A stretch of DNA of 64,000 nucleotides. Origin: Octopus vulgaris. Lineage: Eukaryota. The stretch spans positions 5,952,001 to 6,016,000 of the forward strand of contig OX597839.1 of NCBI GenBank assembly GCA_951406725.2. The letters are read 5' to 3'. This document shows, one piece after another, positions 22,301 to 60,100 of this stretch; within the stretch, counting starts at the first letter, position 1, and each line of letters begins with the position of its first letter. Made by a program: the position numbers.

Positions 22301-24630
22301 CAAGAACACAACACGCAGCCCGGTTTGGGATTCGAGCTCACAACCTCACGATCGTAAGCTCGATGCTCTAACCACTGAGCCATGTGCCTTCACATATTCC
22401 AAACACCAGCTTGATAATAAGATTCTTTTACTAAATTCTTCATTATCTTCGAAATTAATTTGAACAAAGGCAGTATAATTCAATTGAGACATAATGATAA
22501 AAAGTGAGAAGAAATATGTCTGCGTGTGTATGCATGTGTGTATATTATATCAGAGCTATTGAAAATTGGATTTTTGAACATCAAACTAGATATAATTAAG
22601 TTATTTGTGTTTAATTGTGCAGTATATTTTCTTTTTTATATTCATTATTTAATTTTTAATAATTATAATAGATCCAATGTAATCCAATCCTTTAAATTAT
22701 AATCTGTATCAGTGTGGTAATCCAATGAAAAAATCAGAAACATACAAAAAAAAGAAAACAGTATGATGTGTGATGTTTCAGACAGTGGTCTTTTGTCATA
22801 AGATGAAAATTAAGAAAAAAAAAACAAAAGGAACATTTTGCATTATATACAACCACCTTCAGCAGTACTATTGCTACTACTATTGCAAATCAATTTTTTC
22901 CTAGCTCAGAGGTAAGAAATTTGGGTAGAAGTTCATTCAACAGACCCCAGTATTTGACTGGTATTTATTTGATCAGCTTCAAAAGCATTAAGTTTGACAG
23001 AATAGTCTGAATGCTAAATGGTTAAACATTTAATGGTTATGGCAGTGGATAGGACACCAGAATAAAATAGCAAACCAAAAGGGTGCATAGGTACAAAATG
23101 GTCAAGAATCAATGGCTGGTACCTATTGTGTTATTTCAGAGTAATATAATAGGTGTAGGAGTGGCTGTGTGGTAAGTAGCTAGTTTATGAACCACATGGT
23201 TCCAGGTTCAGTCCCACTGCATGGCACCTTGGGCAAGTGTCTTCTACTATAGCCTCGGGTCGACCAAAGCCTTGTGAGTGGATTTGGTAGACAGAAACTG
23301 AAAGCAGTCCGTCGTATATATGTATATATATATATATGAGTGGCTGTGTGGTAAGTAGCTTGTTTACCAAACACATGGTTCCAGGTTTAGTCCCACTGCG
23401 TGGCACCTTGGGCAAGTGTCTTCTACTATAGCCTCGGGTTGACCAAAGCCTTGTGAGTGGATTTGGTTGACAGAAACTGAAAGAAGCCTGTCGTATATAT
23501 GTATATATATATGTGTGTGTGTATATGTTTGTGTGTCTGTGTTTGTCCCCCCAACATCGCTTGACAACCGATGCTGGTGTGTTTACTTCACCGTATCTTA
23601 GCGGTTCGGCAAAAACGACCAATAGAATAAGTACTAGGTTTACAAAGAATAAGTCCTGGGGTAGATTTGCTCGACTAAAGGCGGTGCTCCAGCATGGCCA
23701 CAGTCAAATGACTGAAACAAGTAAAAGAGTAAAAGTGCAATGGATCAAAACACAAATGGAAAATTAAAAGTTTGTATTTTGTCCTTACCTCCTCCAAGAA
23801 CTGACTCAATAGTAATATGTGAGGAGTCAATTTCTCTGGTGAACTCCCTGACAGCTTGGTTAGGGTCTTCATAAGTATGTGGGTCTATGTACGACTTGAT
23901 AGAGCCTGGGGGTTGAAATAGAGGCACGGTCACTGAAAAAGTAAGTAATGAAAAAAATGGAAGAACAAATGTTAGTAACAAACAAAACTGGGAGCCAGAT
24001 GTAGAACACAAAGCAGTTAGGATATCTAATTATTAATTATTTTAACGACCAAAGGTAAGCATTGTGAGTTTGTGCAATGTGTGTACGATTCTTTACGCAT
24101 CGTTCGTTTTGTGCATGTATCTGTAAGTGATTATCCTCTCCACTGCAATGAAAAAGTGTAAGCACCAAAACCAGAATGGCAAAAGAGGGAAGCTTTAGAT
24201 CTGAATAAATAAATATACATACTTTCATGAGTGAGTGGATAAATAAAAGACAGTTGTACTCAACACATGTTATAAGTTACAGATATTATTTAGTAAGAGT
24301 TTGATTCAGCTCCGGTCAATTTGAAGTGTTGCAAAATCATAAAACGAATCCAGCTCTTCAGGCTAAGACACTTGAAGAGCAAGGTGTGTTATAGAAGCCC
24401 ATGACACTTTAAGCCAAACCAAACATTTGGGTGTGGCCATTGCCAGTACTACCAAACTGGTCCTCGTGCCGGTGGCATGTAAAAGCACCCACTACACTCT
24501 CGGAGTGGTTGGCATTAGGAAGGGCATCCAGCTGTAGAAACACTGCCAGATCAGATTCGAGTCTGGTTCGCCAGACCTCAGTCAAATCATCCAACCCATG
24601 CTAGCATGGAAAGCAAATGTTAAATGATGA

Positions 24631-24676
<46 letters not shown>

Positions 24677-25568
24677 GTATATATCTCAAAATGTATGGAT
24701 GTAGTTAGGGTAAATCCCAGCTGTTTCCTCTTGAAGGACATCTGCTTATTCCATGATTACAATCAATATGTAGTCTCAGTTGCTGCTGTGTGTTAGTTCA
24801 AAATACTTATCAAAACTGAGAATTATAGAAATATCATTTACAGAGTTATGTATGTATGTATGTAGAATATATGTGATATTGTATATTAAAGCTGATTGTA
24901 TTTCCAATATTTTGAGACGAACCAATGGTTTATAAAAAAAAAATCTGTTTTGAATATGTGATGTTTTCCAAACAAACAAGAATTACAACAAAAATTAATA
25001 AACAAACAAATGAAACAAACTGTATATATATATACAATATACACATTCGTGCAAATATACACACTTACTACTTTTATGATTCAGGAGTTACAATAGGAAT
25101 GAGAAACGAAATTTATATATACATATACATTATATATGTATATTTATTTCCATGCATACACACAATGGTAATGAACAAAAAGTACTCATTTCATGAAGTA
25201 GACTAAAACTGCAATTTGTCCAGGTGAGGTACTTGGTGCGAGGCTTTTGTATATTTTTATGTGTGTATATATACATATTTATATATATATATATACATAC
25301 ATATATACACATATATATATATATATATACACATACATATATATACACATATATATATATATATATACATACATATATACACATACATATATATATATAT
25401 ATATACATACATATATACACATACATATATATACACACACATATATATACACACACATATATACACACACATATATATACACACATATATATATATATAT
25501 ATATACATACATATATACATACATATACATATATATACATATATACACATACATATATATATACATAT

Positions 25569-25601
<33 letters not shown>

Positions 25602-25694
25602 CATACATACATATATATACATACATATACATATATATGTATACATATACATACACACACATACATATATACATACATATGTATACATATACAT

Positions 25695-56648: not shown

Positions 56649-56683
<35 letters not shown>

Positions 56684-57100
56684 TCCATATATAGATATAT
56701 ATATACATACACATACATACATAGATATATATACATATATATATACACATACATAGATATTTATATACACACACACATGCATACATATATATATATAGAT
56801 ATATACATACATACATACATACATGTATATACATACATATATATACATACACACATACATATATATACACACTCACACATACATAGATATATATACACAC
56901 TCACACATACATACATAGATATATATACACACACACATGCATACATAGATATATATACACACACACATACACACACATATATATACACACATAGATATAT
57001 ACGCACATACACATACTTATATATATATGCACACACACACACACGTGTATCCATACATGTATGTATTTGTTTGTATGGATGTATGGGAGTATACATACAT

Positions 57101-57144
<44 letters not shown>

Positions 57145-60100
57145 ATTTATATATATATATATATCCTACATTGAGTAATGCATGAAAAGGACACGGTAAA
57201 TAATATTCCTAAAAAATAGCAGAGAGAGCGAGAGAGAGGACGGGAGAGAGGGAGCAGGGGAGAGAATCACAGTTGATATATTACCGAACGGATTGCTCCA
57301 AACCTCCAAAGACAGCGGCTAGGGTCGGTCGGTCGGTCGGTCGGTCGGTCATATATAATTTTTTATTTTATTTCATCTTGTTTTTATTTTGTTCTATTTA
57401 TTTATTTCATATTTTTTTTGAGTTCTGGTTGCAAAGATGAATGGATGGATATGCAGAGGAGGAGAAGGAAGTTGAGGGGGTAGAAGCAATTATATTTAAA
57501 ATTCCTTCTTCCTCCACAAAACTCCTGCCAAAATATCCTTCCTCCTCACCACCACCACCACCACTGTTCAGCCACCAATAAAGTATAATTCAAACAACAA
57601 CAACAATGTTGGTTCTGATTGACATGAAATTCTGGTATACCATTTTTTTGTTTATTTTTTTAAATAAAATCTGTGTCACAAAATTTTTCTGTTTTTTGCA
57701 TTTTTCTTCTTTGGAGGTGGGGGGGGGGGCATGATTTTTTTTGATTTTTTTTTTACCTCGTTTTGGAGATTTTTTTTTTAAATATTTTTTCTTTTGTTTT
57801 TGTTGTTGCATTTCTTCATTAAATTAGCAATGCCATTTAACTAATTCCCTACTTCCACTCCTTGCCCTCCCCCCCCCCCCACCAAGGCCATCATAACTTT
57901 ATTTATTAACATATATTTCTATTTCACTGGAAGGAAGAAAGAAGTAAAAACAAAAATAAAATCAGGAAAACTGCAAAATAAAAAAATAAATGAAAATAAA
58001 AAAATAAATGAAAATAAAAAAATAAAATCTAAACAAAAATAAATAGAAGAAATTTGACACAATTACACAGATTTTATTGATGTCCCCATTGTAGATTAAC
58101 CCTAAGTTATACTTAATCCAGCAAGCCTGTCTATGATCAAAGGCATTCCAATTGAGGCCATCCTGTCTGTTTCCTACCAGCAAGGAACATAGGGCTATAT
58201 ATTTCAATGCGTTTTCTTCTTACTCTTTACTCTACTTGTTTCAGTCATTTGACTGTGGCCGTGCTGGAGCACCGTCTTTAGTCGAGCAAATCGACCCCAG
58301 GACTTATTCTGTGTAAGCCTACTACTTATTCTATCGGTCTTTTTTGCCAAACCACTAAGTTACTGGGACGTAAACACACCAGCACCGGTTGTCAAGCGAT
58401 GTTGGGGAGACAAACACAGACACACACACATATATATATATACATATATATGACGGGCTTCTTTCAGGCTTTGGTTGGCCTGAGGCTATAGGAGAAGACA
58501 CTTGCCCAAGGACTCATGGTGCCATGTATTAAGCCCCTTTGCCAGTGCCACATGAAGGCACTCATTCTGATGCCATGTATTAAGCATCTGCATCAGGGCC
58601 ACATCCGTGTTGATCGCACATATAAGTCACCTGTGCTGGTGTCACGTATTAAGCACCCATATCAGTGTCATGTAAAAGTGTGTTGGAGCCATATATTTAC
58701 CCCTTGTGCCAGTACCACGTAAAAAGCACCCAGTACACTCTGTAGAGTGGTAGGCATTAGGATGGGCATTTAGGAGTAGAAAGCATGTCAAAACAGAGGC
58801 ATTGGTGCCTGGACAGCTGTCCAGTTGGTCAGCTCCTGTCAAGCCATTCAACTCATGCCAGCATGGAAAACAGATGTTAGATGATGATGATGATGATATC
58901 TGGCTCTGGGGAAATATTACCTTGCTTGGAAACAGGTAAGTTTCGAAACAAGAAGGGCATGCAGCTGTAGAAAATCTCCCTCAATAAACGCCATCTGACA
59001 CATAAATGCATGGAAGAAGGGACCTTAAAATCATGATGAGCATCATCATGATCTAACTACCTAAATGGTATGGGAGAGGAATGGTATGGGTGGCAGCGAG
59101 CTGGCAGAAACGTTAGCACGCCGGGCGAAATGCGTAGCCATATTTCCTCTACCGCTACGTTCTGAGTTCAAATTCCGCCAAGGTCGACTTTGCCTTTCAT
59201 CCTTTCGGGGTCAATAAATAAAGTACCAGTTACGCACTAGGGTCGATGTAATCGACTTAATCCGTTTGTCTGCTCTTGTTTGTCCCCTCTGTGTTTAGCC
59301 CCTTGTGGGTAGTACAGAAATAGGTATGGGAAAGGAACAAAAAAAGGAAGGAAAAAATAGGTGTGGAATGAAGATGAAACACAGCACATGAAACAATTTG
59401 TGTCAATTAAGATATTTCAAAAGAAGGAAAACAACAGCCCCTGCCCTCACTACAAAAAATAAAAAATAAATGGGGGCAATTAATATCAATAAAATGAAAG
59501 AAGACCCCAGAAACTGAGGATGCCAACATTAAAAACTGTTTACCTACATACGTTATTCTAAATCATTTCAACAATCACCAAGACTACCACCACCACTACA
59601 TTCACAAATTTTCCTACAACCAGCACCACCACCACCACCACCACCACACTTTGCCAGTACTAACAAACTTTATTAATTCCAGGTAACAAATCATTACCAG
59701 ACAGTAATAATAGTAGTGACTATGGTGATGATGGAGGTGGTGGTGGTGGTACTAGAATAGGTGTTGGTAGTAGTGTTGTTGTTGTTGGTGGTGGTGGTTG
59801 TAGTAGTAGTAGTTGTAATGGAACTTGCAAAGGTGGTGGTAGCAGTAGTAATAACAGTAGTGGCAGTAGTAGAGGTGGTTGTAGTACTTGGAGTGGTTGT
59901 GGTACTAGCAGATGTGGTGGTGGTAGTAATAGTAGTAGTGACTGGTGATGGTGGTGGTGGTACTAGAATAGGTGTTGGTAGTAGTGTTGGTGGTAGTGGT
60001 GGTGGTGGTACTAGAATAGGTGTTGGTAGTAGTGTTGGTGGTGGTGGTGGTTGTAGTAGTAGTAGTTGTAATGGAACTTGCAAAGGTGGTGGTAGCAGTG

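What the first reader, a model, noticed from the sequence alone, without database searches (positions are those of the whole stretch)
23933..57318. Second candidate cassette array upstream of the juxtamembrane tyrosines
Seen: more than 33 kb with no recognisable ectodomain or TM exon, but a series of phase 1-1 open units: 90 nt (56306-56395), 81 nt (52051-52131), 9 nt (44260-44268, weak donor), 42 nt (43986-44027), 15 nt (38376-38390), 33/42 nt (36195/36186-36227), 30 nt (29401-29430, weak donor) and 6 nt (29224-29229). Established: the Eph juxtamembrane segment autoinhibits the kinase and docks SH2 proteins. Inference: variable spacer length and sequence between TM and YIDPHTY. With the kinase-insert array, one gene could produce many isoforms instead of the paralogue expansion vertebrates use.
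Basis: partly seen in the sequence, partly recalled or inferred. Interest (0 to 1): 0.82.

Follow-up and report, generated by a model that had tools for sequence, protein, structure and literature searches.

The report
Two juxtamembrane cassette exons, octopus Eph
Inside a very long intron of an octopus Eph receptor gene, two of the eight proposed mini-exons are real, conserved 42-base alternative exons that lengthen the linker between membrane and kinase, while the other six look like chance.

Summary
The window holds the 3' half of an Octopus Eph receptor gene on the minus strand. Region 23933-57318 is part of an intron stretch of over 40 kb between the YIDPHTY exon (23789-23932) and a transmembrane exon that lies beyond the window end.

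All nine coordinate pairs are AG/GT-flanked and open in phase 1-1. As a class this is no better than chance: 1270 such units on the sense strand, 1512 on the antisense strand, about 1100 in shuffles.

Two units are genuine cassette exons:
- Exon A: 43986-44027, 42 nt.
- Exon B: 36186-36227, the 42-nt option, not the 33-nt one.

Public octopus, argonaut and squid Eph proteins show all four combinations: neither, A, B, A+B. Every junction residue matches the phase-1 prediction. A and B also rank first and second of 1805 candidates on a crude splice-site score.

A-type inserts come and go among isoforms in bivalves, gastropods, a chiton and a nemertean. B was seen only in cephalopods.

None of 21 cephalopod proteins carries any of the other six units (90, 81, 9, 15, 30, 6 nt).

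The isoforms are already in public annotation, though I found no paper describing them. The effect on signalling is inferred, not shown.

The parts
43986..44027 (-). Cassette exon A, 42 nt, phase 1-1. It encodes IQCPQMETQTNGG plus two junction codons. About 70 nt of polypyrimidine precede the acceptor, and the donor is gtaagt.
   Evidence: tblastn of squid P0142 hits 44028-43984. Six Octopus RefSeq models start at METQTNGG, which lies inside this exon. Squid P0137 and P0142 splice it to the TM exon. It has the top splice score of 1805 candidates.
36186..36227 (-). Cassette exon B, 42 nt, phase 1-1. It encodes LSRLIWADRMGEK plus two junction codons. The upstream tract is T-rich and the donor is gtgagt.
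   Evidence: tblastn of P0133 is 100% identical over 36228-36187. The exact peptide occurs in 7 octopod proteins, and squid homologues are in P0003, P0135, P0138, P0140, P0141 and P0142. It has the second-best splice score of 1805.
23789..23932 (-). Constitutive juxtamembrane exon holding [10 protein letters not shown], 144 nt, phase 1-1.
   Evidence: It is 100% identical to Octopus vulgaris Eph P0002 and matches Pfam PF14575 positions 48-73.
44028..64000 (-). Intron upstream of exon A. It is at least 19,973 nt and runs off the window; the TM exon is not in the window.
   Evidence: tblastn of P0133, P0142 and P0003 finds no TM or ectodomain exon.
36228..43985 (-). Intron between exons A and B, 7,758 nt. 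It contains the unsupported 15-nt unit 38376-38390.
23933..36185 (-). Intron between exon B and the juxtamembrane exon, 12,253 nt. It contains the unsupported 30-nt (29401-29430) and 6-nt (29224-29229) units.
56306..56395 (-).
   Evidence: It is absent from 237 stored proteins. Its peptide, extended to 40 aa, finds nothing in the 5.8-billion-protein set (5 candidates, none at E<=10). On the splice score, 21 candidates including itself are at least as good.
52051..52131 (-). It is G-rich and sits next to a (TAA)n array.
   Evidence: It is absent from 237 stored proteins. The acceptor is weak (12 of 19) and the donor good. It was not searchable in the large protein set because it is under 40 aa.
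44260..44268 (-).
   Evidence: Donor score is 1 of 6, and 49 candidates including itself are at least as good. No cephalopod protein has a 3-residue insert upstream of A.

Best explanation
The region is intron of an Octopus Eph receptor tyrosine kinase gene. It contains two independently used 42-nt, phase 1-1 cassette exons.

Splicing from the transmembrane exon (outside the window) to the YIDPHTY exon can skip both cassettes, include A, include B, or include both. This inserts 0, 14, 14 or 28 residues into the flexible linker, about 13 residues before the first juxtamembrane tyrosine. That much is shown.

Inferred effects:
- The inserts change the length and content of the tether between the membrane and the autoinhibitory juxtamembrane segment and kinase.
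- Cassette A supplies a proline-containing motif conserved across molluscs.
- Cassette B supplies a basic and hydrophobic stretch found only in cephalopods here.
- Different cells could therefore tune Eph forward signalling or partner docking.

The other six units are chance AG..GT windows.
For: Gene identity. The juxtamembrane exon is 100% identical to Octopus vulgaris Eph. The downstream kinase exons map at 100% within exon limits. The Pfam architecture of the matching protein is complete.

Isoform evidence. 21 cephalopod proteins cover this junction:
- 5 skip both cassettes.
- 8 carry B only.
- 3 carry A only (1 full-length squid protein, 2 N-truncated octopus models).
- 5 carry A+B (1 full-length squid protein, 4 N-truncated octopus models).

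Junction residues. All six follow from the window's bases under phase 1. The unseen last base of the TM exon is taken as G, deduced from those same isoform proteins, so the three TM-exon junctions test only the two window bases. Those are TM-to-JM, TM-to-A and TM-to-B. The three internal junctions rest on window bases alone.
- TM to JM gives V.
- TM to A gives V.
- TM to B gives G.
- A to B gives S.
- A to JM gives M.
- B to JM gives M.

Splice sites. A and B rank first and second of 1805 frame-compatible candidates, and each is unmatched on both sites.

Conservation. Octopus and squid differ at 2 of 14 residues in each cassette. A-type inserts are present or absent among isoforms in all 8 mollusc and nemertean groups examined. 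An insert at the same site varies in 2 chelicerate groups.
Against: - No full-length octopus model joins the TM exon to exon A. In octopus, A appears only as the first coding exon of N-truncated RefSeq models. The TM-to-A junction is documented only in squid transcript assemblies from an unnamed source.
- All isoform evidence comes from automated gene models and transcriptome assemblies. I saw no reads.
- No other cephalopod genome could be aligned, so intron-level conservation is untested.
- The functional effect is pure inference.
Confidence: 0.85

Rival explanations
1. One reading: a larger array of about eight phase 1-1 cassettes, including 6- to 15-nt microexons, is used between the TM and juxtamembrane exons.
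For: All units are AG/GT-flanked and open. Very small inserts at this very site do exist elsewhere: GKK and CK in chelicerates and a 6-nt GE choice in bivalves and a chiton. Automated annotation often misses microexons.
Against: 0 of 21 cephalopod proteins carry any of the six extra units. 1270 equivalent units arise by the same rule, fewer than on the antisense strand. Their splice scores sit in the background. The 90-nt peptide finds nothing in the large protein set.
Confidence: 0.05
2. In octopus, exon A serves mainly as the first coding exon of a transcript from an internal promoter. That transcript would give a membrane-less cytoplasmic Eph kinase starting at METQTNGG.
For: Six RefSeq models from two Octopus species start exactly there. 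None of the four O. vulgaris full-length isoforms contains A.
Against: Exon A has a strong acceptor with about 70 nt of pyrimidines, which a first exon does not need. Squid transcripts splice the TM exon to A (P0137, P0142). In O. sinensis the ectodomain is a separate 429-aa model (P0125), which suggests a split gene model rather than a real internal start. A-type cassettes are internal in every other mollusc examined.
Confidence: 0.08
3. Nothing here is functional: all units, A and B included, are chance open windows or annotation noise.
For: The bare pattern is at chance level.
Against: A and B peptides occur in independent records from Octopus vulgaris, O. sinensis, O. bimaculoides, Argonauta hians and Doryteuthis pealeii. 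They are also in squid transcript assemblies from an unnamed source. All have exact junction residues. A is conserved across molluscs.
Confidence: 0.02

Closest known systems
Public isoform models of the same gene: O. vulgaris CAI9741190-93, O. sinensis XP_036369580/XP_029651492/XP_036369581, O. bimaculoides XP_052832973-75, Argonauta hians GAB1603814, Doryteuthis pealeii UZQ18783
   Same: They have the same two cassettes, the same junction residues, and the same 36-nt kinase insert choice.
   Different: Nothing differs in substance, so the window adds only genomic coordinates. The octopus RefSeq models are N-truncated and start inside exon A.
A-type juxtamembrane cassette in other protostome Eph genes (RefSeq isoforms of oysters, mussels, scallops, clams, Biomphalaria, Liolophura, Lineus)
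   Same: The insertion point, phase and usual 14-residue length are the same. The core is shared (V-x-H/Q-C/Y-P-P-L/M-E ... N-G-G), and it is present or absent among isoforms of one gene.
   Different: The octopus copy has drifted (CPQMET where others have CPPLEP). Bivalves and the chiton add a 6-nt GE choice. That choice is not variable in the 15 cephalopod proteins that reach the TM exon. No non-cephalopod protein examined has a B-type cassette.
Vertebrate Eph variants with a juxtamembrane insertion: chicken Cek5/EphB2 and Cek10/EphB3 variants of about 15-16 residues (recalled from memory; not retrieved)
   Same: Alternative splicing inserts a short peptide in the cytoplasmic juxtamembrane region of an Eph receptor.
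   Different: Homology of the inserts and of the insertion point was not tested here. Vertebrates also have many paralogues.
Juxtamembrane or kinase-insert splice choices in other receptor tyrosine kinases: ErbB4 JM-a/JM-b (PMC9663514, abstract seen in the listing); FGFR VT+/-, TrkB/TrkC kinase inserts (recalled)
   Same: Short frame-preserving alternative segments next to the membrane or in the kinase tune signalling from one gene.
   Different: ErbB4 JM-a/b is extracellular and mutually exclusive. Here the cassettes are cytoplasmic and independent.

Membership tests
Eph receptor tyrosine kinase gene | Juxtamembrane segment with the two conserved tyrosines, followed by a tyrosine kinase domain | tested here: met
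   The exon at 23789-23932 encodes [10 protein letters not shown] and matches PF14575 positions 48-73 at E 1.1e-15. Kinase exons map to the window.
Eph receptor tyrosine kinase gene | Ephrin-binding domain, cysteine-rich region, two FN3 domains, TM helix, SAM domain | tested here: inconclusive
   These features are present in the matching O. vulgaris protein P0133. However, the ectodomain and TM exons are not in the window. I did not examine residues beyond 959 of P0133, which include SAM, in the window.
Cassette (skipped) exon | Canonical AG acceptor and GT donor, with a frame-preserving length | tested here: met
   A and B are each 42 nt and phase 1-1, with strong pyrimidine tracts and gtaagt / gtgagt donors.
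Cassette (skipped) exon | Transcript-derived sequences both with and without the exon | tested here: met
   Of 21 cephalopod proteins, 5 have neither cassette, 8 have B, 3 have A and 5 have A+B. These are models and assemblies; I saw no reads.
Cassette (skipped) exon | Conservation in related species | tested here: met
   Octopus and squid share 12 of 14 residues in each cassette. A-type inserts occur across molluscs and a nemertean. DNA-level intron comparison was not possible.
Tandem array of mutually exclusive exons (Dscam-like) | Sequence-related duplicated exons | tested here: not met
   A and B share 9 of 42 bases ungapped and their peptides are unrelated.
Tandem array of mutually exclusive exons (Dscam-like) | Only one exon of the array appears per transcript | tested here: not met
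   A and B occur together in P0142, P0123, P0127, P0129 and P0130.
Neural microexon programme (3-27 nt; definition recalled) | Exon length of 27 nt or less | tested here: not met
A and B are 42 nt.
Neural microexon programme (3-27 nt; definition recalled) | Neural-specific inclusion | not testable with these tools
   No expression data were available.

The most novel reading that the evidence does not exclude
Cassette B is a cephalopod invention added next to an ancient protostome cassette A. With the 36-nt kinase insert and a 2-residue ectodomain choice, four independent switches would give up to 16 forms of the octopus Eph receptor. Neurons of the optic lobe and arm cords would use them in a cell-type-specific way to diversify Eph forward signalling.
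Probability: 0.12. Interest if true: 0.55.

Novelty: new member of a known kind. Interest (0 to 1): 0.33.

Why it matters
Eph receptors pattern neural maps. The Octopus bimaculoides visual-system atlas reports ephrin and an Eph receptor in opposing gradients in the optic lobe (PMC9815951, passages read).

Isoforms that differ in the tether between membrane and kinase could change how this receptor signals. The practical value here is modest:
- Exact genomic coordinates for two conserved cassettes.
- A warning that six other proposed units should not be annotated.
- The observation that the A-type cassette is switched on and off across molluscs and a nemertean, while B is cephalopod-only in this sample. 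Nine library searches found no paper describing this.

Tried and rejected
- **Large protein set, 90-nt unit.** Extended upstream in the same open frame to 40 aa, it gave 5 word-sharing candidates and none at E<=10. This is a weak negative.
- **Dating exon B.** I searched with squid P0142 residues 478-530. Only its own cluster representative came back (1 of 25 candidates). Whether Nautilus or other molluscs have B stays open.
- **Structure prediction.** I modelled O. sinensis P0127 with a 37-row alignment. Mean pLDDT was 55.2, and residues 1-36 (the cassettes) were below 50 with no secondary structure. The model is poor even in parts of the kinase, so it says nothing about order or disorder of the cassettes.
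- **Repeat test.** The 81-nt and 30-nt units only adjoin microsatellites, so this did not discriminate.
- **Rfam scan of the whole window.** 0 matches at gathering thresholds.
- **Literature.** Nine searches found no paper on juxtamembrane cassettes in mollusc or cephalopod Eph genes. The texts held for PMC2121056 and PMC1968848 were too truncated to confirm the recalled chicken variants. PMC3353934 (Drosophila Eph) had nothing on juxtamembrane isoforms. Supplements were closed and not consulted.
- **Dscam-like mutually exclusive array.** Rejected.
- **Spliced model.** I did not build, translate or search any joined spliced model of the window. Searches used single exons or database proteins.
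Full report
**What the window is**

Six-frame reading shows Eph kinase exons on the minus strand at low coordinates. The [10 protein letters not shown] exon is at 23789-23932 (144 nt, phase 1-1, acceptor ending at 23933).

That exon alone, searched against the large protein set, is 100% identical to an Octopus vulgaris Eph receptor (P0002). It is 98% identical to a Doryteuthis pealeii Eph cDNA product (P0003). In that search 345 of 351 candidates passed E<=0.001 and 120 were listed.

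It matches Pfam PF14575 positions 48-73, and the octopus protein has the full Eph architecture. The window has no N. Nothing in it was taken for human.

I searched single exons and database proteins only. I did not build or search a joined spliced model of the window.

**Checking the observation**

All nine coordinate pairs are AG/GT-flanked, multiples of three in length, and open in the phase-1 frame.

No TM or ectodomain exon lies anywhere up to base 64000. tblastn with full-length octopus and squid proteins finds only low-complexity chance hits (E about 0.5) apart from the exons described below. The TM exon therefore lies beyond the window. The TM-to-YIDPHTY interval exceeds 40 kb.

The pattern as such is not special:

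| Sequence | Units fitting the rule |
|---|---|
| Sense strand, 23934-57318 | 1270 |
| Antisense strand | 1512 |
| Mononucleotide shuffles (20) | 1080 +/- 56 |
| First-order Markov resamples (20) | 1118 +/- 50 |

**Two units are real**

The squid cDNA product carries an insert between the end of the TM exon and TVPLF.

I fetched the members of the two cephalopod clusters: 14 and 9 proteins, of which 21 cover this junction. They fall into four classes:

| Class | Count | Proteins |
|---|---|---|
| Neither cassette | 5 | P0002, P0124, P0134, P0136, P0139 |
| B only | 8 | octopods P0122, P0126, P0133; squid P0003, P0135, P0138, P0140, P0141 |
| A only | 3 | squid P0137; N-truncated octopus models P0131, P0132 |
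| A then B | 5 | squid P0142; N-truncated octopus models P0123, P0127, P0129, P0130 |

tblastn places B at 36228-36187 (100% identity to P0133). It places A at 44028-43984 (13 of 15 residues identical to squid P0142).

Every junction residue in these proteins follows from the window's bases under phase 1, taking G as the unseen last base of the TM exon:
- V for TM-to-JM and for TM-to-A.
- G for TM-to-B.
- S for A-to-B.
- M for A-to-JM and for B-to-JM.

That G was itself deduced from these proteins. The three TM-exon junctions therefore test only the two window bases that follow it.

The 33-nt alternative for B uses an internal gtgaga donor. It appears in 0 of 21 proteins.

**Splice-site ranking**

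I used a deliberately crude score. The acceptor score counts pyrimidines at -20 to -4 and adds a bonus for a pyrimidine at -3. The donor score counts matches to AG|GTRAGT.

A (19/19, 4/6) and B (16/19, 5/6) each have no rival at least as good on both sites among the 1270 candidates. They rank first and second of 1805 candidates when the search is widened to 23934-63970 and 6-150 nt. The constitutive juxtamembrane exon scores 16 and 5.

The other units fare as follows:

| Unit (nt) | Candidates at least as good on both sites, itself included |
|---|---|
| 90 | 21 |
| 81 | 3 |
| 9 | 49 |
| 15 | 4 |
| 30 | 51 |
| 6 | 34 |

**The other six units**

The 90-nt peptide, extended to the tool's 40-aa minimum, found nothing in the 5.8-billion-protein set. 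The 81-nt and shorter units could not be searched that way.

Only six full-length octopod proteins inform on units upstream of A. Annotation pipelines also tend to miss tiny exons. These negatives are therefore moderate, not decisive.

**Evolutionary context**

Isoforms from ten other protostome groups were listed and compared.

In all eight mollusc and nemertean groups, an A-type insert is present in some isoforms and absent in others. The groups are oysters of two genera, mussels, scallops, venerid clams, Biomphalaria, the chiton Liolophura and the nemertean Lineus. The insert is usually 14 residues, with core V-x-H/Q-C/Y-P-P-L/M-E and a terminal N-G-G. It sits at exactly the same point.

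Other variations at this site:
- Bivalves and the chiton also toggle a 2-residue GE. A likely cause is two donor sites 6 nt apart, but I could not check this because no DNA was examined.
- Biomphalaria and Lineus have a different short second cassette.
- Spiders and horseshoe crabs vary an insert at the same site with weaker similarity, plus tiny GKK/GNK and CK pieces.

A B-type core occurs only in 13 cephalopod proteins of the 237 stored. A is thus an old protostome cassette. B is cephalopod-only in this sample.

A and B are not duplicates of each other (9 of 42 bases identical).

**How it most likely works**

Shown: the two cassettes insert 14 or 28 residues about 13 residues before the first juxtamembrane tyrosine. 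The linker from the TM end to that tyrosine becomes 38, 52, 52 or 66 residues.

Established knowledge, recalled: the Eph juxtamembrane segment around the two tyrosines autoinhibits the kinase. Once phosphorylated, it docks SH2 proteins.

Inference: the cassettes lie in the tether N-terminal to that segment. They would alter its length and add motifs: a proline-containing core in A and a basic-hydrophobic stretch in B. This could tune kinase release, clustering geometry or partner binding.

A structure prediction was too poor to help.

**Comparison and novelty**

The two exons and their isoforms are already in public annotation for three Octopus species and Argonauta, and in a squid cDNA.

Alternative juxtamembrane inserts in Eph receptors are recalled from chicken EphB2 and EphB3. 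I could not retrieve those papers' text. Short alternative segments near the membrane are known in other receptor kinases, for example ErbB4 JM-a/b (PMC9663514, abstract only).

Nine library searches found no paper on these cassettes in molluscs or cephalopods. Supplements were closed. This is a new member of a known kind, of modest interest.

**Verdict**

Interest is 0.33.

Noticed in passing
window 18940-18975 (-): This is a third phase 1-1 cassette of 36 nt, in the kinase N-lobe. It replaces S with MKYFSIWPYQSEC between VVTK and HPIMIV. It is present in O. sinensis P0127 and P0132 and absent in P0130 and in the O. vulgaris models. The squid cDNA P0003 has a different insert at the same point.
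   Followed up: partly
outside the window; proteins P0002 vs P0124, P0126 vs P0133: O. vulgaris isoforms differ by two residues (VP) in the ectodomain between the FN3 domains. This is a fourth binary splice choice in the same gene.
   Followed up: no
proteins P0123, P0125, P0127, P0129-P0132 (O. sinensis and O. bimaculoides RefSeq): The RefSeq gene appears split. One model holds only the N-terminal ectodomain (429 aa). The other models start at a methionine inside exon A. Neither includes the second FN3 domain or the TM exon.
   Followed up: partly
window, many sites, e.g. 2257-2444, 9998-10289, 20089-20315, 24433-24634, 31600-31960, 54042-54287, 55281-55458: There are at least three families of interspersed repeats 150-500 nt long, in both orientations, at 70-92% identity. 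BLAST pieces numbered 20, 9 and 29, self-hit included, some overlapping. They are probably SINE-like elements, but no Rfam or tRNA match was found.
   Followed up: partly
window 39942-40623, 39669-39935 and 63058-63734: Three long-period tandem repeats are present: 200 nt x 3.4 at 96% matches, 135 nt x 2 at 98%, and 184 nt x 3.7 at 93%.
   Followed up: no
window 59725-61527: This is a block of about 1.8 kb of trinucleotide low complexity. It comprises GGT/AGT-rich repeats followed by an (AAG)n array of about 268 copies. It produces long spurious open frames on both strands.
   Followed up: no
proteins (bivalves, chiton): A 2-residue GE is present or absent at the end of the TM exon in oysters, mussels, scallops and Liolophura. 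A likely cause is two donor sites 6 nt apart, but no DNA was examined. All 15 cephalopod proteins that reach the TM exon have GE.
   Followed up: no
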